From: Escherichia phage A4
Direction: 5' to 3' (one strand)
Sequence record: ON286972
Length of the DNA: 64,000 nucleotides
How positions within the stretch are numbered: the first letter of the stretch is position 1; each line of letters opens with the position of its first letter. A program made the position numbers and the translations under genes. The notes below the pieces were generated by a model. The model had not been told where the DNA came from, ran no database searches, and saw nothing but the letters and a program-made list of their open reading frames with translations. This document shows, piece by piece, positions 1-28,896 of this stretch.

Positions 1-1
1 C

Positions 2-274
2 AAGAAGTACATGAATCATGAAGTACATTATGTTTTCGAGGACGGTAAAGAATATTTTGCTTATTTGAGTCCCAGGAGTTTAGGTAAGTACGAGTTGCTT
101 CAGGATCTTTCTCTTATGCAGGAAGATGAATTATTTCAGTACAGTCTAATTCATGACCCTTATATGTTTGATATAGATATTATGTGCAGTTTACAGAAGA
201 GGATGAAAGAAGTTTGGGATTCGATTAAAAGAGGTGATTGTATAGAATATGATAGTATACAAGAAGATGCCTAA
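2..274 (+). CDS. hypothetical protein, FQxS-motif paralog family (5' partial)
   Basis: Frame open from window edge; C-terminal motif DELFQYSLIHDPY shared with downstream paralogs. Confidence 0.5.
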   Translation, partial: KKYMNHEVHYVFEDGKEYFAYLSPRSLGKYELLQDLSLMQEDELFQYSLIHDPYMFDIDIMCSLQKRMKEVWDSIKRGDCIEYDSIQEDA

Positions 275-467
275 CGGATATGAATTGAAGTACAGACATT
301 TTATTCGAAATGTAGAATCAGATCCTTTTAATGTTAAAATGGCAGAGTTCGATTTATTATTTTATCTAGGAACGAGAGCACAGCCACAATTCGTTGATGC
401 ATACATAAGGGCTTTACGAACAGAGATAGTATGCACACCAAAGGAGTCTAAATGTACAAAAATGTAA
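249..467 (+). CDS. hypothetical small protein, FxLGT-motif family
   Basis: ORF-track ORF; motif LLFYLGTRAQ..YIRAL matches 452..709 and 10494..10918; start 249 or 267. Confidence 0.45.
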   Translation: MIVYKKMPNGYELKYRHFIRNVESDPFNVKMAEFDLLFYLGTRAQPQFVDAYIRALRTEIVCTPKESKCTKM

Positions 468-709
468 ACCATCATTTGTACGCATCAAAGTACAGGGATT
501 TTTGTTTACAAGGGGGCGATGAAGATTTTGCTTTGCGATTATCGGAATTTAATATGTTATTTTATCTTGGTACATCAGTACAAGAAGAAATGGTACAGAA
601 ATTTATCAAGCACCTTGAACGAAAAATTCATACGCAAATTTTGGTTGTTAAGTTACAGAATGAGATAAATGAATACAATGCAGAATCTAACAGTAGTACA
701 GGATCTTAG
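452..709 (+). CDS. hypothetical small protein, FxLGT-motif family
   Basis: Motif MLFYLGTSVQEEMVQKFIKHL, paralog of 249..467. Confidence 0.5.
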   Translation: MYKNVNHHLYASKYRDFCLQGGDEDFALRLSEFNMLFYLGTSVQEEMVQKFIKHLERKIHTQILVVKLQNEINEYNAESNSSTGS

Positions 710-1070
710 ACCAGTAATAATGATGTTAAATGCAAGACGAGATTTATGGCACGAAATGCATAACAACAAGGATTCATTTGCACAAATCAATTTAGTCTTT
801 CAGGAGTTAATCCAGAGTGCATTGGATGTTATAGTACCAAAATACAAAGATGGTATATTCTGTGTAAAGAATGCAGTTCGTCCTCATGCAATTCCAAGGA
901 AAATTAAGTTAGCCAGATTAACATTTGACGAGAGGGATTTCTTCAGTTATAATCCCAGTACAGCTTTATATTTTATTCCTGATTCAGACAAATATCATCC
1001 TATCCATTACGGATGGATTATGTCGTATGTAGTGAATGAAACGGAATACCCTATTAAATGGGAAAGATGA
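669..1070 (+). CDS. hypothetical protein
   Basis: ORF-track ORF in the + strand gene series; no recognised motif. Confidence 0.4.
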   Translation: MNTMQNLTVVQDLRPVIMMLNARRDLWHEMHNNKDSFAQINLVFQELIQSALDVIVPKYKDGIFCVKNAVRPHAIPRKIKLARLTFDERDFFSYNPSTALYFIPDSDKYHPIHYGWIMSYVVNETEYPIKWER

Positions 1071-1255
1071 TGATAGATGCAAAGACATTAAATGCATTAA
1101 ATGCATTACAGGATTCATTATTAGATAGTATTAAGCTGTATTACAATATGCATTTGAGGGGTGGTATCAATGATTACAATTATTATTTGAGTGTAATTAT
1201 ATTTGAGCATCTTTCAGTACAGGATAGAATTTTACACAAGTACAAACATTATTGA
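1058..1255 (+). CDS. hypothetical protein
   Basis: Short ORF, 4-nt overlap with upstream gene. Confidence 0.3.
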   Translation: MGKMMIDAKTLNALNALQDSLLDSIKLYYNMHLRGGINDYNYYLSVIIFEHLSVQDRILHKYKHY

Positions 1256-1266
1256 GGAAACAAAAT

Positions 1267-1623: not shown

Positions 1624-2139
1624 ATGAATGAAATTGAATTATTAACGCACAAGATTAGTACAATAATGCTTATGCTCAAAAATAATCATCCTATACATAA
1701 GTACATTGATATAGATGAATTACGCATAGAAGATAGGCATGGTAAATTATCGTTTATGTTTCACAATGCAAATAATGCAGGGAATGTTAACGTTTGTATT
1801 GCAGCATTTACCCAAGCCAATCCAGTACAAACATCTCCTGTTGTATACGAAAATAAAGAAGGGTATTTGTGGGTAAACACAAACGATTATTTCTTTTATG
1901 ATTTGAAACAAGATGATGAAGTAGAAGAACGAATTGATTTAATTGATATTAGTACAGATTGTAGTGCTGAATTATTTCAGAAATCGTTATTATATAGTCC
2001 TCGTCAAATGCATTATCTAAAGTTATTCAGTTCATTGTACGCGAATCCTTTAATTAAGGGTTTTAAATTTTATATAAAAGTTCCTGACATTCAAGCAGTT
2101 TATGATATTTTGATGCAAGGATATAGTTATGAAGTATAA
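1624..2139 (+). CDS. hypothetical protein, FQxS-motif paralog family
   Basis: Motif AELFQKSLLYSP. Confidence 0.55.
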   Translation: MNEIELLTHKISTIMLMLKNNHPIHKYIDIDELRIEDRHGKLSFMFHNANNAGNVNVCIAAFTQANPVQTSPVVYENKEGYLWVNTNDYFFYDLKQDDEVEERIDLIDISTDCSAELFQKSLLYSPRQMHYLKLFSSLYANPLIKGFKFYIKVPDIQAVYDILMQGYSYEV

Positions 2140-2437
2140 AATGCTTTATACAAAAGATATGATTTATGTTGAATTAGAAGGCGATGAAGACGGTTGGAAT
2201 TTGATTTATTCAAGTAGTTCAGGTTGGTACATGGCACATTTAAATGATAACGAAGTTACAGATTATTTTGTAGATTTCAATACATTATCAGACGAAGAAT
2301 TGTTTCAACAGCAATTAGTGATTGACACGGGTGGTTATGATGTGTTATTATTAAAAAAGATACAGAAAGCTGTTATGAATTTTAATGCCCAAGTATCCGA
2401 ATGGGAAAGGAAATATTATGACCTCGAAGTACAATAA
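2129..2437 (+). CDS. hypothetical protein, FQxS-like (divergent)
   Basis: Motif EELFQQQLVID. Confidence 0.5.
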   Translation: MKYKMLYTKDMIYVELEGDEDGWNLIYSSSSGWYMAHLNDNEVTDYFVDFNTLSDEELFQQQLVIDTGGYDVLLLKKIQKAVMNFNAQVSEWERKYYDLEVQ

Positions 2438-2786
2438 TACATTTGATATTAATAAGTTAACAGAATGGTTTTATAATATTGAAATTGAAGCTATTCCGTA
2501 TCACAAGTACGAACAACGTGATTTGCGTAGTATAGATATTCGTGAGTTGTACGAGTATTATCAGAGTGCATTAGAGATGCATAAGATATTTTTGAGTACA
2601 GAATACATGACACGTTGTAATGATGCGTTTGATGAATTCAAGAAGAATGATAATTTAGTACAGAAATATGTAATAGCAAAGTACATGTACCTTCAGGGAA
2701 TTACAAGTATAGTGGAATTCAATACAGTTCTTGCTTTAGTTGAGATTATTTTATTATGCAAAAATGTAAAGTGGAATTTAGTTTAG
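2385..2786 (+). CDS. hypothetical protein
   Basis: ORF-track ORF; start uncertain (alternative ATG ~2418). Confidence 0.45.
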   Translation: MPKYPNGKGNIMTSKYNNTFDINKLTEWFYNIEIEAIPYHKYEQRDLRSIDIRELYEYYQSALEMHKIFLSTEYMTRCNDAFDEFKKNDNLVQKYVIAKYMYLQGITSIVEFNTVLALVEIILLCKNVKWNLV

Positions 2787-3253
2787 AGAGTGCTGTACAG
2801 TACGTTAAGTACATTGAAGGTGTATACAATATAATGAAAGCATATGAAGGAAAAGGATATGCTTCAATAAATCACAAATATGATTACATCAACAATCAGT
2901 TAGAAGAATCAAATTCAGGTAAAGTGCTTTTTAGTTTTTTATATTTTGCTCCTGACAATGTATATCCTGATGAAGATGATCTTCGTCTGGATAGAGATGA
3001 CCTGTGGTATATGTATCCAGGACGTGATAAGCCAATGGATGATGCTTTGTTGGAAATCAAATACAGTACAGAACCATTGACACCGGAGTTGTGGTTCCAG
3101 TACAGTACAATACATGAAGAAATTGATATCTTTTTCTACGCAATATACAAGATGCTTTATGAGAATGGTGTGCTTAAGAATCATGTATATTTTTATTTCC
3201 AGCAAATGAAAAATGTATATGAGTCCTTTTACCCAACCGAGCCTGTATCGTAA
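2756..3253 (+). CDS. hypothetical protein, FQxS-motif paralog family
   Basis: Motif ELWFQYSTIHEE. Confidence 0.55.
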   Translation: MQKCKVEFSLESAVQYVKYIEGVYNIMKAYEGKGYASINHKYDYINNQLEESNSGKVLFSFLYFAPDNVYPDEDDLRLDRDDLWYMYPGRDKPMDDALLEIKYSTEPLTPELWFQYSTIHEEIDIFFYAIYKMLYENGVLKNHVYFYFQQMKNVYESFYPTEPVS

Positions 3254-3278
3254 GATATGGGCTTTTTTCGTTTTGGTA

Positions 3279-3307
3279 TTGACATAGAAGACCAAAGCTG
3301 TTATCAT
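3279..3307 (+). promoter_or_regulatory. sigma70-like promoter (TTGACA-17-TATCAT)
   Basis: Hexamers read in intergenic spacer upstream of 3334; AGGAG RBS follows. Confidence 0.4.
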
Positions 3308-3333: not shown

Positions 3334-3858
3334 ATGGCGAGTTTCATGATCCCAAGTACATACGAAGATGCATCAAGTGCAGTGTATAAGGTTCATTATA
3401 TTTTTAATTTAATTATTAGTGCATCAAAAAATAAAATGTATGCACCTCTTGTGAAATATGATAAAAATGAGGAAATTTTTGTTAGCACAGAACAAACGAT
3501 TTTTCCATATTTCAAAGAAGATAGATTGTGGTTCATGCATTCAGTCGTATTACAAAGATATAATATAACAAGGTCCAATGAGCATGATTATTTGGATATA
3601 CAATTAGATCAACCCGATATTGGAGAGGATGAATATTTTCAGTACAGCACAGTACACCACCATGAAGATATCTTTGCTGCTATGCTTATTGCTAAATTGA
3701 ACACCGTTGATTTGGAGCAGCACAAATACAATAATAAATCATGTAAGATCATAATCCCTGCATTCATTGCTCTTTATGATTACATTGTGCATAACAAAAA
3801 AGATGATACCTATGCTTTCAATGAAGAGTATTTGGATTTTTTTAAGGAGAACATATGA
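3334..3858 (+). CDS. hypothetical protein, FQxS-motif paralog family
   Basis: Motif EYFQYSTVHHHED; RBS AGGAG upstream. Confidence 0.6.
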   Translation: MASFMIPSTYEDASSAVYKVHYIFNLIISASKNKMYAPLVKYDKNEEIFVSTEQTIFPYFKEDRLWFMHSVVLQRYNITRSNEHDYLDIQLDQPDIGEDEYFQYSTVHHHEDIFAAMLIAKLNTVDLEQHKYNNKSCKIIIPAFIALYDYIVHNKKDDTYAFNEEYLDFFKENI

Positions 3859-4379
3859 GCAGTTCAACAATACAGAAAGCAATGACATTCAATGAAATTG
3901 GTGCATTTAAAGATAAGATTATTGATTGTATTGAATACGCGATTTGTAGTAATATCAAAAGTATAGAGGTATTTAACAAGTCAAATCGCTCTTACCATAT
4001 GATGTACATTGCAAACAATAATGGTATCATTCCATTTGTTTCGGATAGTACAATATGGTTCGCTTGCGATGTGAAAAAATACACAATAGGTTCATATGTC
4101 TTCGGTAAACATGGTGATCTAATTATTCCTGAGCATTGTATGCAAGAAGAAGAATATTTTCAAAAGCAATGTGTACATGAACCATTAGAGATGGTTGCTT
4201 TATATATGATACCTTATATCTCTAAATGTGTTCATGAGAATAAAGCTCCGTGGAATCATGAATTTGTATCGTTGAAGTTATTGTATAATGTTTTAGTACA
4301 ATATTATGATTACAGGCACAATGGTACAATCAGTGATGTATGGGATTTCGAAAATTTAAGGGTAAGTACATATGCATAA
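3855..4379 (+). CDS. hypothetical protein, FQxS-motif paralog family
   Basis: Motif EEYFQKQCVHEP; ATGA overlap with upstream gene. Confidence 0.55.
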   Translation: MSSSTIQKAMTFNEIGAFKDKIIDCIEYAICSNIKSIEVFNKSNRSYHMMYIANNNGIIPFVSDSTIWFACDVKKYTIGSYVFGKHGDLIIPEHCMQEEEYFQKQCVHEPLEMVALYMIPYISKCVHENKAPWNHEFVSLKLLYNVLVQYYDYRHNGTISDVWDFENLRVSTYA

Positions 4380-5010
4380 TTTTCCCAGAAATGCTTCACC
4401 GTATGAGGTGATGAAGTTCATGGAGCCTCATGTTCCTTATATGTTTGAAATGCTAAAGAAGTTCAATGCTATTTTCCCTGAGAATTCAAAATTGGAGATT
4501 CCATTTGATTCCGCATCCAGATACAGTGCATCCTGTGGTAAATTAGTTTTAGTTATCGGTAGTGACAGAATTGGTTTCAGGGAAGTATTTGACACGTCAT
4601 TAGCATTTGGTATATTCGATAACAACAATAACATCACATACATTGACAAGTACATTTGCGACATAGCAGGTTCCTCTAAGCCTGATTCCTTTGTGGATTC
4701 AGTTGCAGATTATGGTGTTTCAAAAGATGGTAATGTAATAAGTACAAAGACGTTCATATCATTATCGTTAGAAGATGACATATGTTACATTGCAGGTCAA
4801 GAGTACGAGGGTGTAGAGGAAGTGCTTTTTCAAATGTCCTTAGTACAGAAGGATATGGTGGACCCTACCGAAATCCTGAAGTTGTGCAAATATGCGAATG
4901 AGTACAAGAAATTGATTGAACCTGGGTTTAGTTTCAGTGCACAGAGTCCACATTTTCAGATAAAAGTATATGAAGATTTCATTTTGAAGTTAAAAGAGAT
5001 TGTGTTATAA
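4372..5010 (+). CDS. hypothetical protein, FQxS-motif paralog family
   Basis: Motif EVLFQMSLVQKD. Confidence 0.55.
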   Translation: MHNFPRNASPYEVMKFMEPHVPYMFEMLKKFNAIFPENSKLEIPFDSASRYSASCGKLVLVIGSDRIGFREVFDTSLAFGIFDNNNNITYIDKYICDIAGSSKPDSFVDSVADYGVSKDGNVISTKTFISLSLEDDICYIAGQEYEGVEEVLFQMSLVQKDMVDPTEILKLCKYANEYKKLIEPGFSFSAQSPHFQIKVYEDFILKLKEIVL

Positions 5011-5053: not shown

Positions 5054-5599
5054 GTGATTGATATGATCCAGCACAAACATTTTGAGTACGAGTTCGCTGA
5101 CAATTTAGTAAAAATCGTACAGGCGTTTGAGGCTGGGGATTTTGACCACATCTATCCTAAGCACAAGGAAGGATGGCTTGAGCCTAAGAGCGATATTGAA
5201 CAGTATCCCTCTATTGTGTATTACAGGAGAGATACGGTAATGCACGCTGTAGGTGAGAAGATGCAGTTAGAGTATTGTCTTTTGTTCAATGCTATTACAT
5301 CGGCTACATCAGCATCTGAAGAGTTCGCTCCAGTGAATTGGATTCGTTATTTGGATATGAGCAAGAGAGAGGAAGAAACCTTTTTTGGTTTAACAAAGCA
5401 CGTTGATATTGCAACCTTAAATCCTAACATCCTGAGTCCTGAAGAATATTTTCAGGAGTCCTTAGTACAAGATCCTTATGTTTTACAGGTGCAGCAAGTA
5501 TATAATGTATTACGTGCTAATGTGAAAACGAATTTCTTTTTAGCTTTAACGTGGTACGATAGGTTAGTAAAAGATCTCAAAGAGATTAAGGGGGAGTAA
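5054..5599 (+). CDS. hypothetical protein, FQxS-motif paralog family
   Basis: Motif EEYFQESLVQDPY. Confidence 0.6.
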   Translation: MIDMIQHKHFEYEFADNLVKIVQAFEAGDFDHIYPKHKEGWLEPKSDIEQYPSIVYYRRDTVMHAVGEKMQLEYCLLFNAITSATSASEEFAPVNWIRYLDMSKREEETFFGLTKHVDIATLNPNILSPEEYFQESLVQDPYVLQVQQVYNVLRANVKTNFFLALTWYDRLVKDLKEIKGE

Positions 5600-6165
5600 T
5601 GCTGGACCTTCAGGACATAGAAAGTACATGCAAAGTGATAGAAGATGATTTAGAATACATCAAGGGGTTGTATTTAATTGTAGATAGGATTTACAAAAAT
5701 CCGAATGCGTTTCAGGAAACGTACCAGCATGATAAATTTCGTCACGATGCAATCATTACGCTTATGTCGGATTTATCGATTTACGAAAGAAAATCCAACA
5801 AATCACATAGTGTATTATTTGTGAGTACAGATAGATTTTACAGTACAACATCAATTTGTTCAGATGTATCATGTGCATGGTTCAGTTCAAATGAATATAT
5901 AACAGTTAAAAATAATGGCGAAAATGAGAAATTAAAAGTAAGTGAGCTTATTGATTTGATGCCATATAGTCCTGATGTAGTGTTTCAGTACAGTACATTG
6001 CACGATTATAATTCAATACGATATCGTTATTTTGTTAAGCATTATTATGATACCTTCGGGGAGTTAACGGAGAAGTTAACGTTGAGATTTGACAGAGATA
6101 TCGATCTCGTTGCATTGAATCAGTACCTTCAGGAAGTGTTTGATATAAACGCGGAAAAGGGGTAA
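5599..6165 (+). CDS. hypothetical protein, FQxS-motif paralog family
   Basis: Motif VVFQYSTLHDYN. Confidence 0.6.
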   Translation: MLDLQDIESTCKVIEDDLEYIKGLYLIVDRIYKNPNAFQETYQHDKFRHDAIITLMSDLSIYERKSNKSHSVLFVSTDRFYSTTSICSDVSCAWFSSNEYITVKNNGENEKLKVSELIDLMPYSPDVVFQYSTLHDYNSIRYRYFVKHYYDTFGELTEKLTLRFDRDIDLVALNQYLQEVFDINAEKG

Positions 6166-6379
6166 TTTTAAAATGATAAATATAGGCTTGTTTTTGGGGG
6201 CGTTTTGGGGGGTCAAAAAAATTTTCGCTGAAAAACATGTTAAGGTATATGTTTAATATAAAATTTTATATTGTGTTTTTCAGAGTACAGTTCATGTTTC
6301 CTTAAACAAAAAATACCCCCCGCCGCCGAACGTGCTCCTTATATTGGAGTTTACCTTATTAATTATAGTAGAGGTTATT

Positions 6380-6736
6380 ATGAGCAATGATTTTGCTATT
6401 CACAGTTTTTTCTACAAAAAGGTTGAGTTCTATTGTAATCTCGTTAAGGGTGATACCAATCATTCGTTGGACCAATATATTAAGTACACCTCAAATGGAT
6501 TTTCTTTTGTTGATTACGGTCGAGTTGGTGGTGGTGTTAATGAACCTATGCTGGACTATACAGAAATGGATGAGGCTACTCTATTTCAGGAATCATTAGT
6601 GTTCGATAAGAAATATATTTGTACACTAGATGAAGTTATTGGTATTCAGAATATCATGAAAGAATACTCTGCGAAGTGCATGATGGAATTAACTCAAGAT
6701 AAGCACAAGACTGTTCAGTGCTATTTCAATCTTTAG
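6380..6736 (+). CDS. hypothetical protein, FQxS-motif paralog family
   Basis: Motif ATLFQESLVFDKK; ATG at 6380 with GAGG RBS preferred over track start 6332. Confidence 0.55.
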   Translation: MSNDFAIHSFFYKKVEFYCNLVKGDTNHSLDQYIKYTSNGFSFVDYGRVGGGVNEPMLDYTEMDEATLFQESLVFDKKYICTLDEVIGIQNIMKEYSAKCMMELTQDKHKTVQCYFNL

Positions 6737-8072: not shown

Positions 8073-8073
8073 A

Positions 8074-9891: not shown

Positions 9892-9902
9892 GTTCATGCT
9901 AT

Positions 9903-20542: not shown

Positions 20543-20548
20543 TTTTAA

Positions 20549-20576: not shown

Positions 20577-20615
20577 TTTGCTATTATTTTAATATTATTT
20601 AACCGAGGATATCAT

Positions 20616-22282: not shown

Positions 22283-22839
22283 AATATAGTCTTTACAGTA
22301 GAGGAAAGTTTCTTGAGAAGTTCATTGAAGATTGTGTAGCTGCACTGAGTTTAATTCGTGAAGGTGAATACATTAAAGTCAATCACACTGTACTAAGAGA
22401 TCTTAATTTTTTTCTGAGTGGTGATTTGAATAATGATATGCACTTCACAATAACGTACAACCACAAAGATATCATTGAAATCAATACACAACAACGACAC
22501 ATAAAAGAATACACCCGATTACGCAATACCAAGACAAAGCGTGTAGTAATCAAAAAAGGTGATGTAGAGTTGATGTGTAAAGATAGTACTGCAATAGATA
22601 TCAGTACTTACTTCGATAATGAAGAAGATATGGATTGTGATTGCTTCCAGAAGAGTTTAATTATTGATGATCCGTATGTACTGTACGGTGCAGTACTGGC
22701 TCCGTTCTGTCAGAAGAACTTACCAGATGGATGTACGGTTGAATTGAACTTGACAGAACTCATGAATGATGATATATTTGAGTACATGAGTACTAACTCC
22801 AAGGCAATGATTGAACATATTAAGGCAATCCAATGTTAA
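22279..22839 (+). CDS. hypothetical protein, FQxS-motif paralog family
   Basis: Motif DCFQKSLIIDDPY. Confidence 0.55.
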   Translation: MKYSLYSRGKFLEKFIEDCVAALSLIREGEYIKVNHTVLRDLNFFLSGDLNNDMHFTITYNHKDIIEINTQQRHIKEYTRLRNTKTKRVVIKKGDVELMCKDSTAIDISTYFDNEEDMDCDCFQKSLIIDDPYVLYGAVLAPFCQKNLPDGCTVELNLTELMNDDIFEYMSTNSKAMIEHIKAIQC

Positions 22840-23318
22840 ATCCAGCAGACGTTATTAAATTTTGTAAAATTCTTGAGAAGTATTCTCATAAATTTGTGCA
22901 CGAAGTACAGATAATGATTGATGGCATTCCCTTTAACTTCGTGAAAAACAACGACATTATATCTGTGTTCTGTGGCTCATGGACATTTTGTGAACTCAAC
23001 TGTCAAGAATCTCAAAATGTTATTGTGAAACGAAACATGATCCTATCAAGGGAAAGTTCAGTATTCATTGAACCAAGTGGTGAAATCATATACGAGAAAA
23101 AGAACGGCGACAGAACTTTAGATGATTTTATGGCTGAATTGAGCCTTGATAATGAGTTTCATAGAAATGCAGTTCTGATACATAGTGCTATGGTGCATGA
23201 AACTAATTTAAATTCTATATCAATTAATTTCGGTGTTTATTCTTATTACAAATTTACATTTGATATGATATTTCAAACACTTAACAAACATCCTATATTC
23301 TGGAAATGCAATGAATAA
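22833..23318 (+). CDS. hypothetical protein (possible degenerate FQxS member)
   Basis: ORF in array; motif position degenerate. Confidence 0.45.
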   Translation: MLNPADVIKFCKILEKYSHKFVHEVQIMIDGIPFNFVKNNDIISVFCGSWTFCELNCQESQNVIVKRNMILSRESSVFIEPSGEIIYEKKNGDRTLDDFMAELSLDNEFHRNAVLIHSAMVHETNLNSISINFGVYSYYKFTFDMIFQTLNKHPIFWKCNE

Positions 23319-23769
23319 AGACGATTACGAATTACTGAAAAAGTTAATCCAGTACTGCCTCAATGAACTGGATAATGGTAAAGCTCGAAAATCAGGTTCA
23401 TGGTTTGATGTAAGCTATCCATCAGACGGCGATGATATGATGACATTATGGTCAAATGAAAGATACATTGATTATAGTGTAATGGATAATACTACTATAG
23501 ATTATGTCAATGACAATGTATGGTATTTCAATACACAGTTAATCATTGATATTAAAAGTATAGATTTAAGTACTGAGATTGATGAAGCAACCATATTTCA
23601 ATTAAGTACTTTGTATTCTGATGAAGTGATATATCCGTTATTACTTCTCCTACAGTTGAGAGCCATTGCAGCGGAACGTGGTTTCACATCCATATCATTT
23701 GCTCATGACATTGATGTACGAAGAGCAGAAATTACAAAATTAGTTGAGGGATATGATGGAACACTTTAG
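23311..23769 (+). CDS. hypothetical protein, FQxS-motif paralog family
   Basis: Motif TIFQLSTLYSDE. Confidence 0.55.
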   Translation: MNKDDYELLKKLIQYCLNELDNGKARKSGSWFDVSYPSDGDDMMTLWSNERYIDYSVMDNTTIDYVNDNVWYFNTQLIIDIKSIDLSTEIDEATIFQLSTLYSDEVIYPLLLLLQLRAIAAERGFTSISFAHDIDVRRAEITKLVEGYDGTL

Positions 23770-24247
23770 TACTAAAGACTTTGTGGAATTGCATAAAATT
23801 CTTGAAGAAAAATATATCAATGAACAATATGGTCGATTCGAACTGGCTCCAGATATTATTCTTAAAATACAAAAAGATGGTATGATCAGAGTTGTATTTG
23901 AGCAGAAAAGAGGTTTAGACCATGACATTTTCATGCTCTTTGATAGCAATAGTCCTATCTATGATGCACCAAGTTTCGATACAAGCACCATTGGTTCACA
24001 ATCCGCAGTCTTTCATCCAGGAACTACTGTTGTAAAAATCGATGGTGTAGATTGCAACATGCGACCTGTATCATTGGGTGAAATTGATGAAGTTGAATTT
24101 CAGAACAGTACTGTGAATAATTATAGTGCAATGTTCACCTACATGTGCTATCTTAACAGTACTTGTTGCAAATTTCTTATGTACACATCGTATGTAAATG
24201 AAGATGAAGTACTACACTATGTATTGAAAAAACTAAGAGAATTATGA
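23744..24247 (+). CDS. hypothetical protein, FQxS-motif paralog family
   Basis: Motif VEFQNSTVNNYS; start uncertain. Confidence 0.5.
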   Translation: MRDMMEHFSTKDFVELHKILEEKYINEQYGRFELAPDIILKIQKDGMIRVVFEQKRGLDHDIFMLFDSNSPIYDAPSFDTSTIGSQSAVFHPGTTVVKIDGVDCNMRPVSLGEIDEVEFQNSTVNNYSAMFTYMCYLNSTCCKFLMYTSYVNEDEVLHYVLKKLREL

Positions 24248-24248
24248 T

Positions 24249-24851
24249 ATGATCATTGACATGCCTATTCTTAATAAAATGCTTAACCCTGTCATTACGT
24301 TAGCTAAAAGTATTTCTAATAATGAAAAGTTGCATCTCCCATACTCTATGTTAACGTATGCAACTGATTTTTACAGGATTGAAATCTCGGCATGTGAACA
24401 ACGAATTACACTAGCATTCAAACGCCTTGGTGCTGGACTTGCAAATGATTTTGATATTTCACTGATACTTCATGGTGAATTAGAAGATAGTAAAATTCTG
24501 TCCTATGAAAGAATTCTTCGCAGTACAAATGAAATAAAATTATTCAAAACATTTTCACATTATAATGGTTCTGATGTTTCATATTATTTTGATAAGGATT
24601 CATTTAAGAATATCAAAAGTGTTGAAGTGAAAGATTTCAGCGAAGAATGGTATTTTCAAAATACATTAATTCATTCTTTACCTTCATATGAAGAAATGAA
24701 GATGAACATTGATCTTTATGAAAAATTAAAATCAGAACTGAAATGTAATTTTCTATTATCAATGAACTACAAAAAGATCAGTACTGATGTGGTATTAGAA
24801 GATGAACTAATGAAACGAATTTGGTCTGCTATACCAGTTATTAAGGAATAA
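24249..24851 (+). CDS. hypothetical protein, FQxS-motif paralog family
   Basis: Motif WYFQNTLIHSLP. Confidence 0.55.
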   Translation: MIIDMPILNKMLNPVITLAKSISNNEKLHLPYSMLTYATDFYRIEISACEQRITLAFKRLGAGLANDFDISLILHGELEDSKILSYERILRSTNEIKLFKTFSHYNGSDVSYYFDKDSFKNIKSVEVKDFSEEWYFQNTLIHSLPSYEEMKMNIDLYEKLKSELKCNFLLSMNYKKISTDVVLEDELMKRIWSAIPVIKE

Positions 24852-24853: not shown

Positions 24854-25393
24854 ATGCACATTGCAACATTATCAAATACTAAAGAATTTGAGCTATGGCC
24901 TGAGAAAGTTAACAGCTTACGTCAGCGTTATGTTAATTTCTGCCGTGGCATCAGGAAAGCCAGTAGAATGTCACATTCACTAAGCATGTCAATTGATGGT
25001 TGTGTTATGAATGCAGATAAGAACCGTTTGTACGTTGAATCATACAGTTCGCAAGCTCTGTACATTATGCTTCATGCTGGTACACAAATCCCACAGAATT
25101 CGATTGGTTGTTATTCAATTACATGGTCTGGACGAAAGTCTACTAAATTATATCCGTGCAAAAGAAACGACCAATCGTTCAGTGTTGATATTAATTACTG
25201 TGAGTACACTGAAGAAGAACACTTTCAGCACAGTACTCTTCATGATATCATTGAGTACAATGAATGCATCAATGTACTGGATAAATGTTATGATTTAGAA
25301 CATAATACTGGTATCGTTGTAGTTAATAATTGCTTTTTTGATAGTGATGTACTTGATACATTAGATTATTTTTTAGAGGGTTACAATGACTAA
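24854..25393 (+). CDS. hypothetical protein, FQxS-motif paralog family
   Basis: Motif EHFQHSTLHDII. Confidence 0.55.
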   Translation: MHIATLSNTKEFELWPEKVNSLRQRYVNFCRGIRKASRMSHSLSMSIDGCVMNADKNRLYVESYSSQALYIMLHAGTQIPQNSIGCYSITWSGRKSTKLYPCKRNDQSFSVDINYCEYTEEEHFQHSTLHDIIEYNECINVLDKCYDLEHNTGIVVVNNCFFDSDVLDTLDYFLEGYND

Positions 25394-26003
25394 CATTAGA
25401 ACAGAGTATGTTAAGTACGAGAAAGCACTACGTGATTTACTAAACATTGCACCGGATTTAATTAGAGCTAAACAAACACTATTTGACAAGTACGGTCCGA
25501 AAAGTGAACTCAAGCTATCAAAAAAGGGAAAACCCACACAATATACAACGCTGTATAATAGATATAGCGTTGGGATTTGTAATATCTATACAGATGAATT
25601 AGTACTGGAATTAACCCAAGACGATGATGAAGAAGCACATGATTTATTTCCTGAATTTGAAGAGTGCATGTTTAGTCCAGGTAATCCAGTGTTTTTAACC
25701 TTAAATGATGGAAGAAAAACGCTAAAAGAATCGTTCATCACATATGATGCCAAAACTAAAACACTAATGGATATTGAATCTGGGTATAAGACTGATCTGA
25801 AATCACTTGAAGATTGTAAGGGTGCATTGTTTCAGATGGGTGTAATCACAGAGGTTACCACTACACCAGAAGAATTATGGCTTATGGTTTCAGTACTGAA
25901 TGATTGGTACAAAGTGAAGAGTCTACGAAATATGTTCATTTATATCAAGCCTGATTGCATCAAGAAAGAAACACTAATTAACAATATGGTAATACCTGAA
26001 TGA
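25386..26003 (+). CDS. hypothetical protein, FQxS-like
   Basis: Motif ALFQMGVITEV. Confidence 0.5.
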   Translation: MTNIRTEYVKYEKALRDLLNIAPDLIRAKQTLFDKYGPKSELKLSKKGKPTQYTTLYNRYSVGICNIYTDELVLELTQDDDEEAHDLFPEFEECMFSPGNPVFLTLNDGRKTLKESFITYDAKTKTLMDIESGYKTDLKSLEDCKGALFQMGVITEVTTTPEELWLMVSVLNDWYKVKSLRNMFIYIKPDCIKKETLINNMVIPE

Positions 26004-26599
26004 AAAAAGATCCCAATGAAGACTTAATCAATTCTTTAAGTACTATCAAAGATTTGTGGTTACGATATCGTGGATTGTATAGTGTTAAAGATACAGAAAA
26101 TAACATACTCCAAAGTCTTAAAATCACGATTCGAATGCAATTCAAAAATGGAATGGCAGTTGATGTTGAGATGAACAAAACTGGAGTTTATGTATATGAT
26201 GGTTCTCGAACTGCAATCTTTATGGCAGAATTCATAGATGAAGACTGTAATCTATATTGTTCATACGACATTGAAAGTGGTGATATCGAAATGTTCGCTA
26301 ATGAACCTATCCTGCTCCGTTTCACTAAATCATGGAATGAAGATTACATTATATATCAAAATGGAGGCTTCTTAAATTCCGATGAGGAACCCATCGATAA
26401 CATAGAAGAAATGGCATTCCAGAGCAGTACTGTTAACGATGATGCATTATCTTATCAAGAAATCCTTGACACAGTGAATGGTTATGATAAAATACAGGCT
26501 GCAATGAAAGAGAACGGTATCTGTTATCTTACAGTACTGGACAAACTCTTCTACGATGAACTGTGTTCGTACCTGAACTGTATTCTCACTGAGGATTGA
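26000..26599 (+). CDS. hypothetical protein, FQxS-motif paralog family
   Basis: Motif MAFQSSTVNDDA. Confidence 0.55.
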   Translation: MKKDPNEDLINSLSTIKDLWLRYRGLYSVKDTENNILQSLKITIRMQFKNGMAVDVEMNKTGVYVYDGSRTAIFMAEFIDEDCNLYCSYDIESGDIEMFANEPILLRFTKSWNEDYIIYQNGGFLNSDEEPIDNIEEMAFQSSTVNDDALSYQEILDTVNGYDKIQAAMKENGICYLTVLDKLFYDELCSYLNCILTED

Positions 26600-27015
26600 T
26601 GATGATTCTATACCATGCAAGTACTGTTAAAATTGACAACTTCTACATTCCTTATGGTGGTTTACATATGGGAGGGAAGCATAGTGCTCTTGAGGCTGCG
26701 TTACGCAAGCTGAGAAGCCCACTGAACGTTGTTGATGCTGACATGGTGTACTTGCATACCTTAGAAGTTGACGTTGATAACGTGCTTCTGTGTGAGGATA
26801 TGGGTAGTGATGACGAATGGCGTTCACTTATTGAGTATTGTGATACTGAAGGTTACGATGCAGTTCAGTACAAGAATGAATACGAGCCGGACAATGTTCC
26901 TAGTTATATGATTTGGGATACATCTAAAGTTCGTATTGTTGAAGTTGATACTATGCATATGGATGAAGCTGAAATGATTATCGAAGATTTTCTTGATGAA
27001 TATGAAGGTGTATAA
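26596..27015 (+). CDS. hypothetical protein (not of the FQxS family)
   Basis: Acidic 139-aa ORF interrupting the array; no family motif. Confidence 0.5.
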   Translation: MMMILYHASTVKIDNFYIPYGGLHMGGKHSALEAALRKLRSPLNVVDADMVYLHTLEVDVDNVLLCEDMGSDDEWRSLIEYCDTEGYDAVQYKNEYEPDNVPSYMIWDTSKVRIVEVDTMHMDEAEMIIEDFLDEYEGV

Positions 27016-27539
27016 TGACTGATCCAATGACAGTACTGGTACGTACTAAGTTACTATTGAAGATTGGTGAGATTTTCACAGATCTTATGCACAATCAAAT
27101 TGATATTACAGAACTAGATATTAAGCAACCGTGGGAAATTACAAGGTTCTCGGCGTTCCACCGATTGTCATATAAAGGTGAAACTGTTCTTGATTTTAAT
27201 CACAAAGCACAATTCCTGGATTATGCCGCGTTGTACCGAAATAATTATTCAGGTTGTATAACCAATAACTTCAAAGAAATAAAAGTACAGATTGAATCAA
27301 TTGAATTTAACGAATTACTATATCCAGAATTTAAGTTAACTGAAGAATCTATGTTTCAGTACTCACTAATTCTAAAAGATCTAGAAACTCTAGAGTACTA
27401 CAGAGAGTTAGTAGATATTTTTATGAATGTTCGTCTTTCAAAAGATATTGTGATATTCTGGTATACAGAGCGTATTACAGAGGAAGTACTTGAAGAATTT
27501 CTCGTAAATATGACAGCTATTAAGGAGAATTTATGTTAG
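27015..27539 (+). CDS. hypothetical protein, FQxS-motif paralog family
   Basis: Motif SMFQYSLILKDLE. Confidence 0.55.
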   Translation: MTDPMTVLVRTKLLLKIGEIFTDLMHNQIDITELDIKQPWEITRFSAFHRLSYKGETVLDFNHKAQFLDYAALYRNNYSGCITNNFKEIKVQIESIEFNELLYPEFKLTEESMFQYSLILKDLETLEYYRELVDIFMNVRLSKDIVIFWYTERITEEVLEEFLVNMTAIKENLC

Positions 27540-27997
27540 ACATTTTAGGAAACATTGATACGGTAAACTTTTTTATTCAAGACGCTATTATCAATATCAC
27601 ATCAAAGCCAATCCAAGTTAGAAGTAACTTTTATAGTGGTGATGGTTATATGGTTGATATTGTTGAAGTTAAGAAAAATGTTTTCCAAATCAATATTCTC
27701 ACCCAAACGAGAACACAGATTTCTCGTATCATCATTAATAAAGATGAAGCCGTCATTCGTTATAATTCAAAATTTATGATGTTCTTTAAAAAGAAAACTG
27801 GTATGTTCAGTACTAATCTCTTTGATGAATCATTTTATTCAACCGATGTGGAATCTACCTTCTTCACACAAAGTACATTTATCAAATTTGATAGTATTGA
27901 GTTCGATTCAAATATCATGTCAGAAACATTACAATGCCTAAAGGTATTACATAATGAATTTACCAACTTTATCGATAGCCGAAACAAGATTAACTAA
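27533..27997 (+). CDS. hypothetical protein, FQxS-like (degenerate)
   Basis: Motif position reads FFTQSTFIKFD. Confidence 0.45.
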   Translation: MLDILGNIDTVNFFIQDAIINITSKPIQVRSNFYSGDGYMVDIVEVKKNVFQINILTQTRTQISRIIINKDEAVIRYNSKFMMFFKKKTGMFSTNLFDESFYSTDVESTFFTQSTFIKFDSIEFDSNIMSETLQCLKVLHNEFTNFIDSRNKIN

Positions 27998-28412
27998 TAT
28001 AAATGAATTAGTTAATGCTATCTTATCATGCAAATTAAAAATTGATACCAAATGTAAGTACAATGGTATTAATTTATACAAATTAAAATATTCACGAATA
28101 CATAATTCAGTAAAATACATTTACGGTACTAGTCAAATCATCTTTGAAACGGTTACAGTGAACAGTAAATTACTTATTGATGTTTATATCAGTAATAAGA
28201 TTAAAAATTCACAAAAAGTGTTGACAGTTTCTTCTGATAATGTTACTATGTTTGATACCAACAATAAGAAGTTAGATATTGATTTAGATGTTATTCTTGA
28301 TGGTGACTTATTCCAGTACGAGTGTATTGGTCTAAATAATCCATTTGATAAATCAGTACTAGTCAATTTAATCAAACATATTAAGGGTATTTTAGATGAA
28401 ACTAACAACTGA
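27954..28412 (+). CDS. hypothetical protein, FQxS-like
   Basis: Motif DLFQYECIGLNNP. Confidence 0.5.
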   Translation: MNLPTLSIAETRLTNINELVNAILSCKLKIDTKCKYNGINLYKLKYSRIHNSVKYIYGTSQIIFETVTVNSKLLIDVYISNKIKNSQKVLTVSSDNVTMFDTNNKKLDIDLDVILDGDLFQYECIGLNNPFDKSVLVNLIKHIKGILDETNN

Positions 28413-28896
28413 TATGAAACTTTGCATTTCTTTGATTATGCGTTCATTCGATGACAAAAGGACAAGTAAAGTTACTATCACCAATGACCATTTACAATGC
28501 AGTACACTCAATAGTACTGTAGTTTTCGGATTACATAGCCTCCGTTTGACGATAGTAAATAATATTGACAATACGGCGATGTGTATTACCCCCTGCCACG
28601 TTCAGGATGAACATGGTGTTTATCTTCACCACATGGGGACTTCGTATTTCATTTTCAATGAAGAAAAGGGAGTACAAAAAGACTTTAACACGTTGTGCGT
28701 AGACGGCGGTGAATTGTTCCAGATGGGAACTTTATATCAGTGTGATTTTACTGATACATCTGAAGTACTTCCATTATTTCTTGATCTCATTAAGAATTTA
28801 GGTTCATTTACTGGTCGCTATAACAAATCATTAAAGGCACAGGCAATTCAAAATATCTCGGAAGCAATAGAATATTACGAAAACGCTGTGTCGTAA
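28396..28896 (+). CDS. hypothetical protein, FQxS-like
   Basis: Motif ELFQMGTLYQCD. Confidence 0.5.
   Translation: MKLTTDMKLCISLIMRSFDDKRTSKVTITNDHLQCSTLNSTVVFGLHSLRLTIVNNIDNTAMCITPCHVQDEHGVYLHHMGTSYFIFNEEKGVQKDFNTLCVDGGELFQMGTLYQCDFTDTSEVLPLFLDLIKNLGSFTGRYNKSLKAQAIQNISEAIEYYENAVS

What the first reader, a model, noticed from the sequence alone, without database searches (positions are those of the whole stretch)
1..28896. Hyper-expanded tandem array of about 50 paralogs sharing an 'EExYFQxS(T/L)(V/I/L)(Y/H)' motif
Nearly every + strand gene from the window start to ~28.9 kb, plus outliers at 41180..42444, encodes a 110-215-aa acidic protein with a variable N-terminal half. Many begin with an amphipathic helix of the form ..A(K)KIhEy.. 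. About two-thirds along lies a strongly conserved motif (EYYFQQSTVY, ELFQYSLIHDPY, EEYFQESLVQDPY and similar), often followed by W(Y/F) and a terminal (F/Y)(Y/F)(I/L/M)D(L/Y) motif. Members are head-to-tail with overlapping stop/start codons, and sigma70-like promoters are scattered through the array. I recognise neither the motif nor the family. A family this large and this diverged inside a phage suggests a diversifying accessory module, for example host-takeover, anti-defence or injected effector proteins.
Basis: seen in the sequence. Interest (0 to 1): 0.8.

Follow-up and report, generated by a model that had tools for sequence, protein, structure and literature searches.

The report
Tandem 43-gene family in jumbo phage
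A giant E. coli phage devotes about 29 kb to some 43 head-to-tail copies of one fast-evolving, uncharacterised small acidic protein with an invariant Phe-Gln motif; it looks like an early, non-virion host-interaction gene battery, but its function is untested.

Summary
The window comes from a 121Q/PBECO4-like (Asteriusvirus-like) jumbo coliphage.

**Family size.** Profile searches tie 37 + strand ORFs into one family, with no hits among 762 decoys. Leave-one-out gives 35 of 37 at E<1e-3. Six more ORFs are weaker members and three or four carry only the motif. This makes 43 to 47 copies, not 50. They cover 70% of bases 1-28,896.

**Motif.** F is invariant and Q 99% conserved in 191 sequences. 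Synonymous codons vary at every motif position, so conservation acts on the protein, not on a DNA repeat.

**Fold.** AlphaFold gives a confident alpha/beta fold with no convincing PDB match and no Pfam family. PHROGs splits the family across many "unknown function" groups.

**Distribution.** Phage 121Q has about 43 copies, a RaK2-like Klebsiella phage at least 32, and GAP32 only 8 or 9.

**Evolution.** Most positional orthologues are 26-44% identical, against 83-93% for neighbouring enzymes. Pooled omega is 0.35 against 0.09.

**Expression.** Near-consensus extended -10 sigma70 promoters and terminators fill the few intergenic gaps. No member appears in the phAPEC6 virion proteome.

**Best reading.** An early, cytoplasmic battery of binding proteins aimed at the host, possibly against defence systems. 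Function is inferred, not shown. An injected-effector role and gene-wide positive selection are not supported.

The parts
1..274 (+). family member (short form), 5' end cut by window edge; EDELFQYSLIHD
   Evidence: HMM member, leave-one-out E 1e-7; full-length homologue P0052 is 111 aa
1624..2139 (+). family member, 171 aa; SAELFQKSLLYS
   Evidence: LOO E 1e-6; 53% id to 121Q positional orthologue
2129..2437 (+). family member (short form), 102 aa; DEELFQQQLVID
   Evidence: LOO E 3.3e-6
2756..3253 (+). family member, 165 aa; PELWFQYSTIHE
   Evidence: LOO E 1.2e-5; 36% id to 121Q orthologue
3239..3264 (+). terminator-like hairpin + T run ending a transcription unit
   Evidence: 11-bp stem, TTTTCGTTTT tail
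3279..3307 (+). sigma70-type promoter TTGACA-17-TGtTATCAT in 80-nt gap
   Evidence: 11/12 match with TG extension
3334..3858 (+). family member, 174 aa; EDEYFQYSTVHH
   Evidence: LOO E 2.3e-9; 78% id, dS 0.14 to 121Q
3855..4379 (+). family member, 174 aa; EEEYFQKQCVHE
   Evidence: LOO E 1.1e-7; phrog_33775 unknown
4372..5010 (+). family member, 212 aa; EEVLFQMSLVQK
   Evidence: LOO E 7.3e-6; 28% id to 121Q orthologue
5054..5599 (+). family member, 181 aa; PEEYFQESLVQD
   Evidence: LOO E 6.2e-11
5599..6165 (+). family member, 188 aa; PDVVFQYSTLHD
   Evidence: LOO E 9.9e-8
6332..6736 (+). family member (short form; true start probably ATG ~6380); EATLFQESLVFD
   Evidence: LOO E 1.5e-6
7092..7418 (+). 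family member (short form), 108 aa; ESFIFQESLVWD
   Evidence: LOO E 2.9e-5
7590..8072 (+). family member, 160 aa; EEYYFQQSTVYN; modelled representative
   Evidence: LOO E 1.5e-24; AF2 pLDDT 85.4, pTM 0.83
8074..8544 (+). family member, 156 aa; EEFYFQQNTIYE (young sub-cluster)
   Evidence: LOO E 7.2e-16
8541..8984 (+). family member, 147 aa; EEYYFQQSLIFN (young sub-cluster)
   Evidence: LOO E 4.9e-15
8984..9439 (+). family member, 151 aa; EEYYFQQSTVYT (young sub-cluster; 121Q has five copies here, window four)
   Evidence: LOO E 4.3e-19
9445..9891 (+). family member, 148 aa; EEGYFQLSTVLN; no reciprocal orthologue in 121Q
   Evidence: LOO E 2.2e-11
9902..9929 (+). sigma70-type promoter TTGACA-16-TGtTACAAT in 72-nt gap
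   Evidence: 11/12 match
9964..10497 (+). weaker family member, 177 aa; EEQMFQLSCTDD
   Evidence: E 4.7e-3 with enlarged profile, above all decoys
11128..11676 (+). family member, 182 aa; EESVFQLSTVHN
   Evidence: LOO E 3.1e-10
12175..12588 (+). family member (short form; true start probably ATG 12220); EEEFFQESTVWD
   Evidence: LOO E 9.7e-8; 90% id to 121Q
12588..12926 (+). family member (short form), 112 aa; EEELFQESLVWE; modelled representative
   Evidence: LOO E 3.2e-11; AF2 pLDDT 81.4, pTM 0.76
12929..13465 (+). family member, 178 aa; EELFFQMSTVDD
   Evidence: LOO E 2.9e-12
13462..13490 (+). perfect sigma70 promoter TTGACA-17-TGaTATAAT in 56-nt gap
   Evidence: 12/12 match
13522..14019 (+). 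family member, 165 aa; ECEYFQYCTIYS
   Evidence: LOO E 7.7e-11
14019..14522 (+). family member, 167 aa; EEDYFQLSTTMN
   Evidence: LOO E 2.1e-14; best tblastn in 31 related phages <=31% id
14506..14844 (+). family member (short form), 112 aa; EEELFQMSTTFE
   Evidence: LOO E 9.7e-7
14844..15275 (+). family member (short form), 143 aa; PDELFQYSLVCP
   Evidence: LOO E 1.4e-3; in converged HMM set
15263..15745 (+). family member, 160 aa; EETHFQLSLIYT
   Evidence: LOO E 1.1e-15
15742..16212 (+). family member, 156 aa; EEMYFQNSLLYT
   Evidence: LOO E 1e-11
16222..16728 (+). family member, 168 aa, basic (pI 9.3); DENYFQNSLIYN
   Evidence: LOO E 1.3e-11
16703..17317 (+). family member, 204 aa; DETLFQYSLIHN
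   Evidence: LOO E 5.9e-11
17322..17954 (+). family member, 210 aa; EESFFQYSLLYE
   Evidence: LOO E 1.9e-8
17951..18502 (+). family member, 183 aa; DGVLFQYSTLYD
   Evidence: LOO E 2.3e-7
18491..18512 (+). terminator-like hairpin + T run
   Evidence: 9-bp stem
18525..18553 (+). sigma70-type promoter TTGACA-17-TGtTAGAAT
   Evidence: 11/12 match
20547..20572 (+). terminator-like hairpin after the MCP-like gene
   Evidence: 11-bp stem, 5 GC
20559..20587 (+). sigma70-type promoter TTGACT-17-TGcTATTAT restarting the array
   Evidence: 10/12 match with TG
20559..21170 (+). family member (true start probably ATG 20613); EEQNFQSSVTHD
   Evidence: LOO E 3.1e-6
21154..21726 (+). candidate only (motif-like EAYLFQLSLLPG)
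   Evidence: not significant in any profile search; 121Q positional counterpart is an HMM hit E 3.2e-5
21704..22282 (+). family member, 192 aa; EEELFQLSTMYS
   Evidence: LOO E 4.5e-4
22279..22839 (+). family member, 186 aa; DCDCFQKSLIID
   Evidence: LOO E 6.5e-7
23311..23769 (+). family member, 152 aa; EATIFQLSTLYS
   Evidence: LOO E 8.8e-11
23744..24247 (+). weaker family member, 167 aa; DEVEFQNSTVNN
   Evidence: E 1.1e-3 with enlarged profile
24249..24851 (+). weaker family member, 200 aa; EEWYFQNTLIHS
   Evidence: E 2.1e-6 with enlarged profile
24854..25393 (+). family member, 179 aa; EEEHFQHSTLHD
   Evidence: LOO E 3.2e-6
25386..26003 (+). candidate only (KGALFQMGVITE)
   Evidence: E 0.28, within decoy range
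26000..26599 (+). weaker family member, 199 aa; EEMAFQSSTVND
   Evidence: E 8.2e-5 with enlarged profile
27015..27539 (+). family member, 174 aa; EESMFQYSLILK
   Evidence: LOO E 1.6e-5; 82% id to 121Q
27954..28412 (+). family member, 152 aa, basic (pI 8.35); DGDLFQYECIGL
   Evidence: LOO E 2.9e-3; in converged set
28396..28896 (+). borderline candidate, 166 aa; GGELFQMGTLYQ
   Evidence: E 0.025, just above best decoy; 121Q orthologue is an HMM hit E 1.3e-4
41180..41758 (+). outlying weaker member, 192 aa; LPEHFQMSTLFD; well conserved (88% id, omega 0.22)
   Evidence: E 6.7e-3; phrog_37163
41755..42444 (+). outlying weaker member, 229 aa; EEEHFQLMMMRA; 86% id, omega 0.11
   Evidence: E 1.4e-3

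Best explanation
The region is a tandem multigene family of a 121Q-like jumbo coliphage. About 43 genes encode small, mostly acidic cytoplasmic proteins that share one alpha/beta scaffold.

**Scaffold (predicted).** Long forms have an N-terminal amphipathic helix. A 5-7-stranded antiparallel sheet follows, then a short N-capped helix carrying (S/T)EExxFQxS(T/L)(V/I/L), a second helix and a closing F-Y-x-D strand.

**Expression (inferred from sequence).** Host sigma70 RNA polymerase transcribes the genes early, as a few polycistronic units. The proteins are not packaged into virions.

**Mechanism (inferred).**
- The conserved aromatic core and the FQ helix hold the fold, or form a shared contact.
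- The rapidly changing N-terminal helix and sheet surfaces give each paralogue its own binding partner.
- Together they form a battery of binders or inhibitors aimed at host proteins, for host takeover and possibly against defence systems.
- Lineages keep the array by purifying selection on each copy. They renew it by gene birth and death and by exchanging cassettes between phages.
For: **One family.** The iterative HMM gives 37 members with no decoy hits, and leave-one-out gives 35 of 37 at E<1e-3. Six more join with a larger profile. Long against short forms give hhalign probability 96.4%.

**Protein-level constraint.** Codons vary at every motif position and DNA repeats are limited to motif codons.

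**Real genes.** SD cores occur in 26 of 43 members against 11% at random positions, and 27 of 43 starts are coupled to the upstream stop. Pooled omega is 0.35, CI 0.30-0.42, so below 1.

**Fold.** The two AF2 models score pLDDT 85 and 81, with the motif helix in the best-ordered part at pLDDT 95-98. Apart from the motif, the conserved columns are mostly aromatic or aliphatic: Y72, I73, Y75, F111, Y117, L122, F139 and Y140.

**Early, host-RNAP transcription.** TTGACA-N16/17-TGnTAnAAT promoters lie at 3279, 9902, 13462 (12/12), 18525 and 20559. Each is in a rare intergenic gap 25-35 nt before an RBS. Hairpin terminators lie at 3239, 18491 and 20547. All 13 sites matching at least 11/12 in 1-40 kb are on the + strand.

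**Non-virion.** phAPEC6 array genes gp404c-gp460c are absent from its 62-protein virion proteome. RaK2 virion proteins map to other clusters.

**Fast evolution and turnover.**
- 22 of 34 positional orthologues against 121Q are at most 44% identical, while ligases, PNK, ClpP-like protease, Dam and dCMP deaminase are 83-93% identical.
- Omega is 0.35 for the family against 0.093 for those enzymes.
- Nine members are 78-90% identical with dS of 0.1-0.7, mostly 0.1-0.5 (pooled 0.33 against 0.82 for the enzymes). This points to exchanged cassettes.
- Nine members have no reciprocal partner in 121Q.
- ORF 14019..14522 has no match above 31% identity in 31 related genomes.

**Retention and growth.** 121Q has about 43 copies, the Klebsiella phage KP13-7 at least 32, and GAP32 about 8-9.

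**No enzyme or domain signal.** Pfam, NCBIfam, PADLOC and PDB give nothing recurrent. All 159 database relatives are 65-215 aa single-domain proteins.
Against: - No experiment or homology links any member to a host target, a defence system or any activity.
- Early timing rests on promoter sequence only. The overall density of promoter-like sites is no higher than in shuffled sequence.
- Omega is below 1 everywhere measured, so an arms race is not demonstrated. Divergence of most pairs is saturated, so their omega values are unreliable.
- Low-abundance virion proteins could escape mass spectrometry.
- The invariant F-Q could be purely structural. In that case the 'common scaffold, variable surface' idea says nothing about the targets.
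- The two outliers (41180, 41755) are slowly evolving, so they do not fit the fast-evolving pattern.
Confidence: 0.45

Rival explanations
1. The proteins serve the phage's own programme rather than acting on the host. They could be chaperones, regulators or scaffolds for replication, transcription or assembly of a 350-kb genome. Alternatively they are largely redundant paralogues under weak constraint.
For: - Omega is below 1 but relaxed, at 0.35.
- There is no match to any known defence or anti-defence protein.
- The array is stably retained with similar copy number in two genera.
- The two outliers sit among nucleic-acid enzymes and are well conserved.
Against: - Proteins with housekeeping roles in the same window are 83-93% identical between phages, against 26-44% here.
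- Copy number ranges from 8-9 to 43 across the clade.
- The genes lie in sigma70-promoter units with other small unknown genes, which is typical of early accessory regions.
Confidence: 0.25
2. The proteins are acidic nucleic-acid mimics of the Ocr/ArdA type. They would soak up host DNA-binding enzymes such as restriction enzymes.
For: - Median pI is 4.75 and net charge -11, significantly more acidic than other ORFs.
- One member gives a sub-threshold ArdA hit, E 0.074.
Against: - The ArdA hit occurs in 1 of 37 members, at 14 bits against a cutoff of 27.
- Two members are basic.
- Conserved residues are aromatic or aliphatic, not patterned carboxylates.
- Forty-three different mimics of one generic ligand are hard to justify.
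Confidence: 0.1
3. The proteins are packaged or injected (internal head or inner-body proteins). EExYFQxS would then be a processing site for a phage protease, given its likeness to the ExxYxQ|S/G site of TEV protease.
For: - The motif resembles ENLYFQ(S/G); some relatives read EEGYFQGS or EELYFQYS.
- phAPEC6 has an inner body (abstract of PMC7247149).
- The clade encodes several proteases: ClpP-like twice, ClpYQ-like and a prohead protease.
Against: - No array gene is in the phAPEC6 virion proteome.
- The motif is modelled as a helix in the most confident core, pLDDT 95-98, not as an exposed linker.
- The residue after Q is variable and the conserved S is one position further on.
- No 3C/NIa-like protease is annotated in 121Q in the regions examined.
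Confidence: 0.05
4. It is not one family. The shared string would be a chance or nucleotide-level repeat in unrelated small ORFs.
For: - BLASTP links only small clusters.
- Mean column identity is 13%.
- The nine weakest candidates align to the core group only over the 18-column motif, hhalign probability 63%.
Against: - No decoy hits and leave-one-out recovery of members.
- hhalign probability 96.4% over 59 columns between long and short groups.
- Codon variation at the motif.
- Consistent AF2 folds for both forms.
- 149 of 150 database relatives carry the motif at the same relative place.
Confidence: 0.02

Closest known systems
[quoted passage not shown]
   Same: A single small domain is amplified to tens of copies within one giant phage genome, and the function is unknown.
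   Different: - The fold differs: alpha/beta, not a zinc ribbon.
- The copies form an ordered head-to-tail array kept across at least two genera.
- The family, its motif and its extent are not described in any paper found.
Multigene families of large eukaryotic DNA viruses: ASFV MGF360/505 and the poxvirus Bcl-2-like families (own knowledge)
   Same: - Tandem arrays of highly diverged paralogues share one fold.
- They sit in a variable genome region.
- Copy number differs between lineages.
- Individual members are thought to bind different host factors.
   Different: - There is no sequence or fold relationship.
- The host is bacterial.
- A host-directed function is documented for those families but only inferred here.
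p32/gC1qBP/MAM33 acidic protein fold (PDB 1P32, 7TE3, 3JV1, 3QV0)
   Same: - Both are very acidic.
- The order of elements matches in the long-form model: N-terminal helix, antiparallel sheet, C-terminal helices (p32 topology from own knowledge).
   Different: - There is no sequence relationship: hhalign probability 0.1% and Pfam MAM33 in 0 of 37 members.
- The FQ motif has no aligned counterpart.
Phage anti-restriction DNA mimics (ArdA PF07275, Ocr)
   Same: They are small acidic proteins made early by a phage or plasmid, and one member gives a sub-threshold ArdA hit.
   Different: The ArdA hit is not recurrent. No DNA-mimic structure appears among the listed fold matches. Copy number is far higher.
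PHROGs 9317, 12674, 33775, 22855, 34600, 13866, 29816, 37163 and others (all 'unknown function')
   Same: Window members match these groups directly, at E down to 1e-124.
   Different: PHROGs treats them as many separate families. Here they are joined into one superfamily by profile, motif and predicted fold.

Membership tests
ArdA antirestriction family (PF07275) | Match to the Pfam model at its gathering score | tested here: not met
   1 of 37 members, E 0.074, 14.1 bits against a cutoff of 27
ArdA antirestriction family (PF07275) | Fold similarity to solved ArdA or other DNA-mimic structures | tested here: not met
MAM33/p32/gC1qBP family (PF02330) | Sequence or profile similarity | tested here: not met
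   Pfam 0 of 37. hhalign of A1 against human p32, whose sequence was verified against 1p32_A: probability 0.1%
MAM33/p32/gC1qBP family (PF02330) | Fold: N-terminal helix, seven antiparallel strands, C-terminal helices | tested here: inconclusive
MAM33/p32/gC1qBP family (PF02330) | Doughnut-shaped homotrimer | not testable with these tools
   Only single chains could be predicted
Substrates of a TEV/3C-type protease (site ExxYxQ|S/G) | Sequence pattern E(P6), aromatic(P3), Q(P1), S/G(P1') | tested here: inconclusive
   E 80%, Y 37% (plus L, H), Q 99%. The next residue is variable and the conserved S (90%) lies at P2'
Substrates of a TEV/3C-type protease (site ExxYxQ|S/G) | Site lies in an exposed, extended segment | tested here: not met
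   The motif is helical in both models and lies in the highest-confidence region
Substrates of a TEV/3C-type protease (site ExxYxQ|S/G) | A cognate chymotrypsin-like Cys/Ser protease encoded by the phage | not tested
   Only the window and parts of 121Q were read. The annotated proteases there are ClpP-like and ClpYQ-like
Virion internal or injected proteins (T4 IP type, phiKZ inner-body families) | Detected in purified virions | tested here: not met
   The phAPEC6 virion MS list has no gp between gp347 and gp549, and the array is gp404c-gp460c. RaK2 virion proteins map to two other clusters
Known defence or anti-defence protein families | Match to PADLOC models or to solved anti-defence structures | tested here: not met
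Viral multigene family (tandem lineage-specific expansion) | Many diverged paralogues of one fold, arranged in tandem | tested here: met
   37-43 members, 41 of them within 29 kb on one strand
Viral multigene family (tandem lineage-specific expansion) | Copy number and content vary between related viruses | tested here: met
   43 (window), about 43 (121Q), at least 32 (KP13-7), 8-9 (GAP32). Nine window members lack a 121Q partner. The young sub-cluster has four copies here and five in 121Q
Viral multigene family (tandem lineage-specific expansion) | Members act on host factors | not testable with these tools
   Needs genetics or interaction data

The most novel reading that the evidence does not exclude
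The invariant EExxFQxS helix is a docking element for one common hub: a host machine such as RNA polymerase, a AAA+ protease or the replisome clamp, or one of the phage's own ClpP/HslV-like proteases. The 40-odd variable surfaces would each capture a different host protein. The array would then be a phage-encoded library of adaptors or decoys, functionally comparable to substrate-receptor families such as F-box or BTB proteins, that neutralises many host factors or defence systems through a single mechanism.
Probability: 0.1. Interest if true: 0.85.

Novelty: new variant of a known kind. Interest (0 to 1): 0.6.

Why it matters
About 8% of the genes of these 350-kb coliphages, roughly 43 of 550-620, belong to one family. 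No one appears to have named, modelled or tested it.

If it is an early host-directed battery, several things follow:
- It would be one of the largest paralogue expansions known in a phage.
- It would be a rich source of new inhibitors of bacterial proteins or immune systems.
- It would help explain what jumbo phages do with their extra coding capacity.
- The invariant F-Q pair gives a clean handle for mutagenesis.
- The cassette-like turnover between related phages gives natural variants to compare with host range.

If the family instead serves the phage's own programme, it still defines a new fold family restricted to the RaK2/121Q clade.

Tried and rejected
- **PDB profile search.** hmmsearch with the family profile gave only E 0.2 and 0.9 hits.
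- **Foldseek afdb50.** The library was not available.
- **BFVD.** It returned only uncharacterised proteins of 121Q, RaK2, SP27, GAP32, Serratia BF and Yersinia fHe-Yen9-03.
- **Family libraries.** Pfam, NCBIfam and PADLOC gave no recurrent family. The ArdA, DUF3213 and ER hits each come from a single member and are sub-threshold.
- **tblastn with the HMM consensus.** It found nothing; I suspect BLAST's low-complexity filter removed the Ser/Glu-rich consensus, but this was not checked.
- **TEV-site idea.** Rejected as the main reading because the motif is helical and buried in the confident core and the proteins are absent from virions.
- **Beta-clamp-binding motif (QL[SD]LF).** This resemblance of Q-x-S-L-[VIL] is from memory only. 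About half the members have T instead of L and the segment is structured. It was not tested.
- **Gene-wide positive selection.** Not found; omega is 0.17-0.43 by region.
- **ORF 26596..27015 as a PARP-like ADP-ribosyltransferase.** This was my guess and no tool supports it. The putative His5 is not among the residues conserved at 95% or more.
- **Literature.** Searches for any description of the array in 121Q, PBECO4, RaK2, CBB, Sharanji or fEgEco12 papers, or for an RNA-seq study of these phages, found none.

Full report
**Source of the window.** The window matches 121Q/PBECO4-type jumbo coliphages (Asteriusvirus) at 80-92% nucleotide identity, with only partial coverage. It is therefore a distinct relative of those 350-kb myoviruses. 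Gene order is shared with 121Q: array, Dam methylase, RNA ligase, polynucleotide kinase, DNA ligase, ClpP-like protease, dCMP deaminase.

- A pattern scan finds the acidic-x-x-[FY]Q-x-S string in about 45 + strand ORFs between 11 and 28,896 and in 41180..42444.
- BLASTP alone joins only small clusters, so the family is very diverged.
- An iterative profile search from the 10-member cluster converges on 37 ORFs. None of 762 reversed or shuffled decoys scores below E 1e-3.
- With each member left out of the profile in turn, 35 of 37 are recovered at E<1e-3 and the other two at 0.0014 and 0.0029.
- A profile enlarged with 150 database representatives adds six more at E 2e-6 to 7e-3, still above every decoy.
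- ORF 28396 is borderline. ORFs 21154, 25386 and 11573 have only a motif-like string.
- hhalign between 29 long members and 44 short-form sequences gives 96.4% probability (E 1.2e-9, 59 columns).
- The nine weakest candidates align to the core group only over the 18-column motif, at 63% probability.

I therefore count 37 robust members, 43 profile-supported members and at most 47 in all. They make up 41 of the 60 ORFs of at least 60 aa in 1..28,896 and 70% of its bases. The first gene is cut by the window edge, so the array continues upstream.

**Protein motif or DNA repeat?** It is a protein motif. DNA repeats are short and confined to the motif codons. Both codons of F, Q and E are used there, and both serine codon boxes (AGY 23, TCN 13). 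Over 191 family sequences F is 100% conserved, Q 99%, S 90% and the two glutamates 80% and 77%. The other conserved columns are mostly aromatic or aliphatic.

**Anatomy.**
- The AlphaFold model of 7590..8069 (pLDDT 85.4, pTM 0.83) has an N-terminal helix (residues 3-22) and seven strands (28-95). A short helix carrying EEYYFQQ follows (107-113), then a longer helix (119-133), the F-Y-F-D strand and terminal helices. Confidence is highest around the motif, at 95-98.
- The short form 12588..12923 (pLDDT 81.4, pTM 0.76) lacks the N-terminal helix. It keeps five strands, the motif helix (60-69), the second helix and a closing strand.
- By inference, the (S/T)-E-E start is a standard helix N-cap with acidic first turn, and F packs into the aromatic core. 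The roles of Q and S cannot be read without coordinates.
- Members are acidic: median pI 4.75 and net charge -11, p=6.5e-7 against other ORFs. Two are basic.

**Comparison with known families.**
- No Pfam family recurs. Each weak hit, including ArdA at E 0.074, comes from one member only.
- NCBIfam, PADLOC and a PDB profile search give nothing.
- PHROGs scatters the members over many 'unknown function' groups.
- The order of elements and the acidity resemble p32. However, hhalign against human p32 gives 0.1% probability, so this is a weak fold-level analogy only.
- BFVD returns only uncharacterised proteins of 121Q, RaK2, SP27, GAP32, Serratia BF and Yersinia fHe-Yen9-03.

**Distribution.**
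- A full HMMER scan of 1.84 billion representatives finds only 159 relatives. All are 65-215 aa with a single matched stretch, and 149 of the best 150 carry the motif.
- Apart from one truncated 70-aa fragment filed under Actinomadura, the named cluster members checked come from Escherichia or Salmonella jumbo phages, or from ~350-kb 'E. coli' contigs.
- Scanning syntenic regions gives 38 HMM hits plus 3 motif-only ORFs in the main 121Q locus, and 2 more by orthology to the outliers (41180 and 41755).
- The Klebsiella RaK2-like phage KP13-7 has 32 hits at E<0.01.
- Cronobacter phage GAP32 has only 5 hits plus 3 motif-bearing ORFs, with the motif relaxed to FQx[LM]T.
- The family therefore predates the clade's diversification and was expanded several-fold on the Alcyoneusvirus/Asteriusvirus branch.

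**Evolution.**
- Thirty-four of the 43 members have a reciprocal, mostly collinear partner in 121Q.
- Twenty-two of these pairs are at most 44% identical and three are 53-60% identical.
- Nine are 78-90% identical with low dS (0.1-0.7), which suggests recently exchanged cassettes.
- Neighbouring enzymes are 83-93% identical.
- For the 11 least-diverged pairs, pooled omega is 0.35 (CI 0.30-0.42). By region it is 0.43 for the N-terminal part, 0.17 for the motif +-6 residues and 0.28 for the C-terminal part. Eight enzyme genes give 0.093.
- The genes are thus under purifying but much weaker constraint. Gene-wide positive selection is not shown, and saturated pairs cannot be interpreted.
- ORF 14019..14522 has no match above 31% identity in any of 31 related genomes.
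- The youngest sub-cluster (7590-9439) has four copies here and five in 121Q.

**Expression and location.**
- Genes are tightly packed: 27 of 43 starts overlap the previous stop, and SD cores occur in 26 of 43 members against 11% at random positions.
- Several of the few gaps contain TTGACA-N16/17-TGnTAnAAT promoters, at 3279, 9902, 13462 (12/12), 18525 and 20559.
- Hairpin terminators lie at 3239, 18491 and 20547.
- The total count of promoter-like sites is not above shuffles, so only these gap sites carry weight.
- By analogy with T4-type phages (established knowledge), such promoters mark early, host-RNAP transcription. No transcriptome of this group was found.
- The array genes of phAPEC6 (gp404c-gp460c) are absent from its 62-protein virion proteome (PMC7247149).
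- RaK2 virion proteins map to other clusters (PMC3622015).

**Interpretation.** The best-supported reading is an early, non-structural, cytoplasmic multigene family built on a conserved core with hypervariable surfaces. Most likely it is a battery of binding or inhibitory proteins directed at host factors.
- Shown: family status, protein-level constraint, clade restriction, fast evolution with turnover, and absence from virions.
- Inferred: timing, from promoter sequences.
- Inferred by analogy: host-directed function.
- Rivals: a phage-internal or redundant role (0.25), a DNA-mimic role (0.1), packaged or processed proteins (0.05) and a non-family artefact (0.02).

**Novelty.** The genes are present, as 'hypothetical proteins', in genomes published since 2012-2014. 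The RaK2 paper notes that ~10% of its products are paralogues. No paper found describes this family, its motif or its size. Large paralogue expansions in jumbo phages are a known kind of thing, for example the ~35 zinc ribbons of phage G. This is a new, unusually large and ordered example with an unmatched fold.

Noticed in passing
window 19130..20542 (+): A 470-aa membrane protein with a methyl-accepting chemotaxis signalling domain (Pfam MCPsignal, E 4e-37) sits inside the array, in a terminator/promoter-bounded unit (promoter 18525, terminator 20547) that it shares with ORF 18585..19133. It has no orthologue in the 121Q loci compared (L001, L003). It has no close homologue in any phage record: hits are at most 35% identical and the top-ranked ones look like bacterial sequence filed as phage.
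   Followed up: partly
window 26596..27015 (+): A 139-aa ORF embedded in the array is among the best-conserved genes of the array region: 91% identical to 121Q, omega 0.086. It is present in KP13-7 and as GAP32_055. It has about 31 residues conserved at 95% or more (PxGGxHxGG, RKxR, H52, D66, WR, YxNxxExD), which looks enzyme-like. It has no Pfam, PDB, NCBIfam or PADLOC match (phrog_11632, unknown function).
   Followed up: partly
window ~36000..51300 (+): A second, very diverged family of 85-115-aa proteins. Six members are linked by HMM (37239, 37511, 37695, 38039, 38299, 46420). Many more small ORFs up to ~51 kb share a '...KYIGK..V...' pattern by eye. PHROGs labels them unknown.
   Followed up: partly
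window 249..467, 452..709, 10494..10721, 10712..10918 (+); L001 6000..12500: A third family of ~70-aa proteins (F..LFYLGT..Q, phrog_4148) is interleaved with the main array. In 121Q about 28 tandem ~70-aa genes (319-346) lie just upstream; I did not test whether they belong to this family.
   Followed up: partly
window 6166..6345: This 166-nt intergenic gap has G-runs (GGGGGCGTTTTGGGGGG) and, about 110 nt downstream, C-runs (CCCCCCGCCGCC) in an otherwise AT-rich region. The predicted long-range pairing is only marginally better than shuffles (z -1.97).
   Followed up: partly
L005 (GAP32) 24917..30011: The distant relative GAP32 carries only 8-9 family members (GAP32_048-056), all of the long form, with the motif relaxed to FQx[LM]T. 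The 4-5-fold expansion is therefore specific to the Klebsiella/Escherichia jumbo-phage branch.
   Followed up: yes
window 3334..4379, 7590..8984, 12175..12588, 27015..27539 vs L001: Some array genes are 78-90% identical to 121Q with dS of 0.1-0.5. The pooled value is below that of the enzyme genes (0.33 against 0.82). Their immediate neighbours are only about 30% identical. This mosaic pattern suggests recent recombinational exchange of cassettes between phage lineages.
   Followed up: partly
window 56155..56850 and 63219..63824; L003 27357..27953: The phage encodes two ClpP-like proteases within the window. 121Q has a ClpYQ/HslV-like protease just beyond it. Annotations of the first differ between records ('head maturation protease' against 'ClpP').
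   Followed up: no
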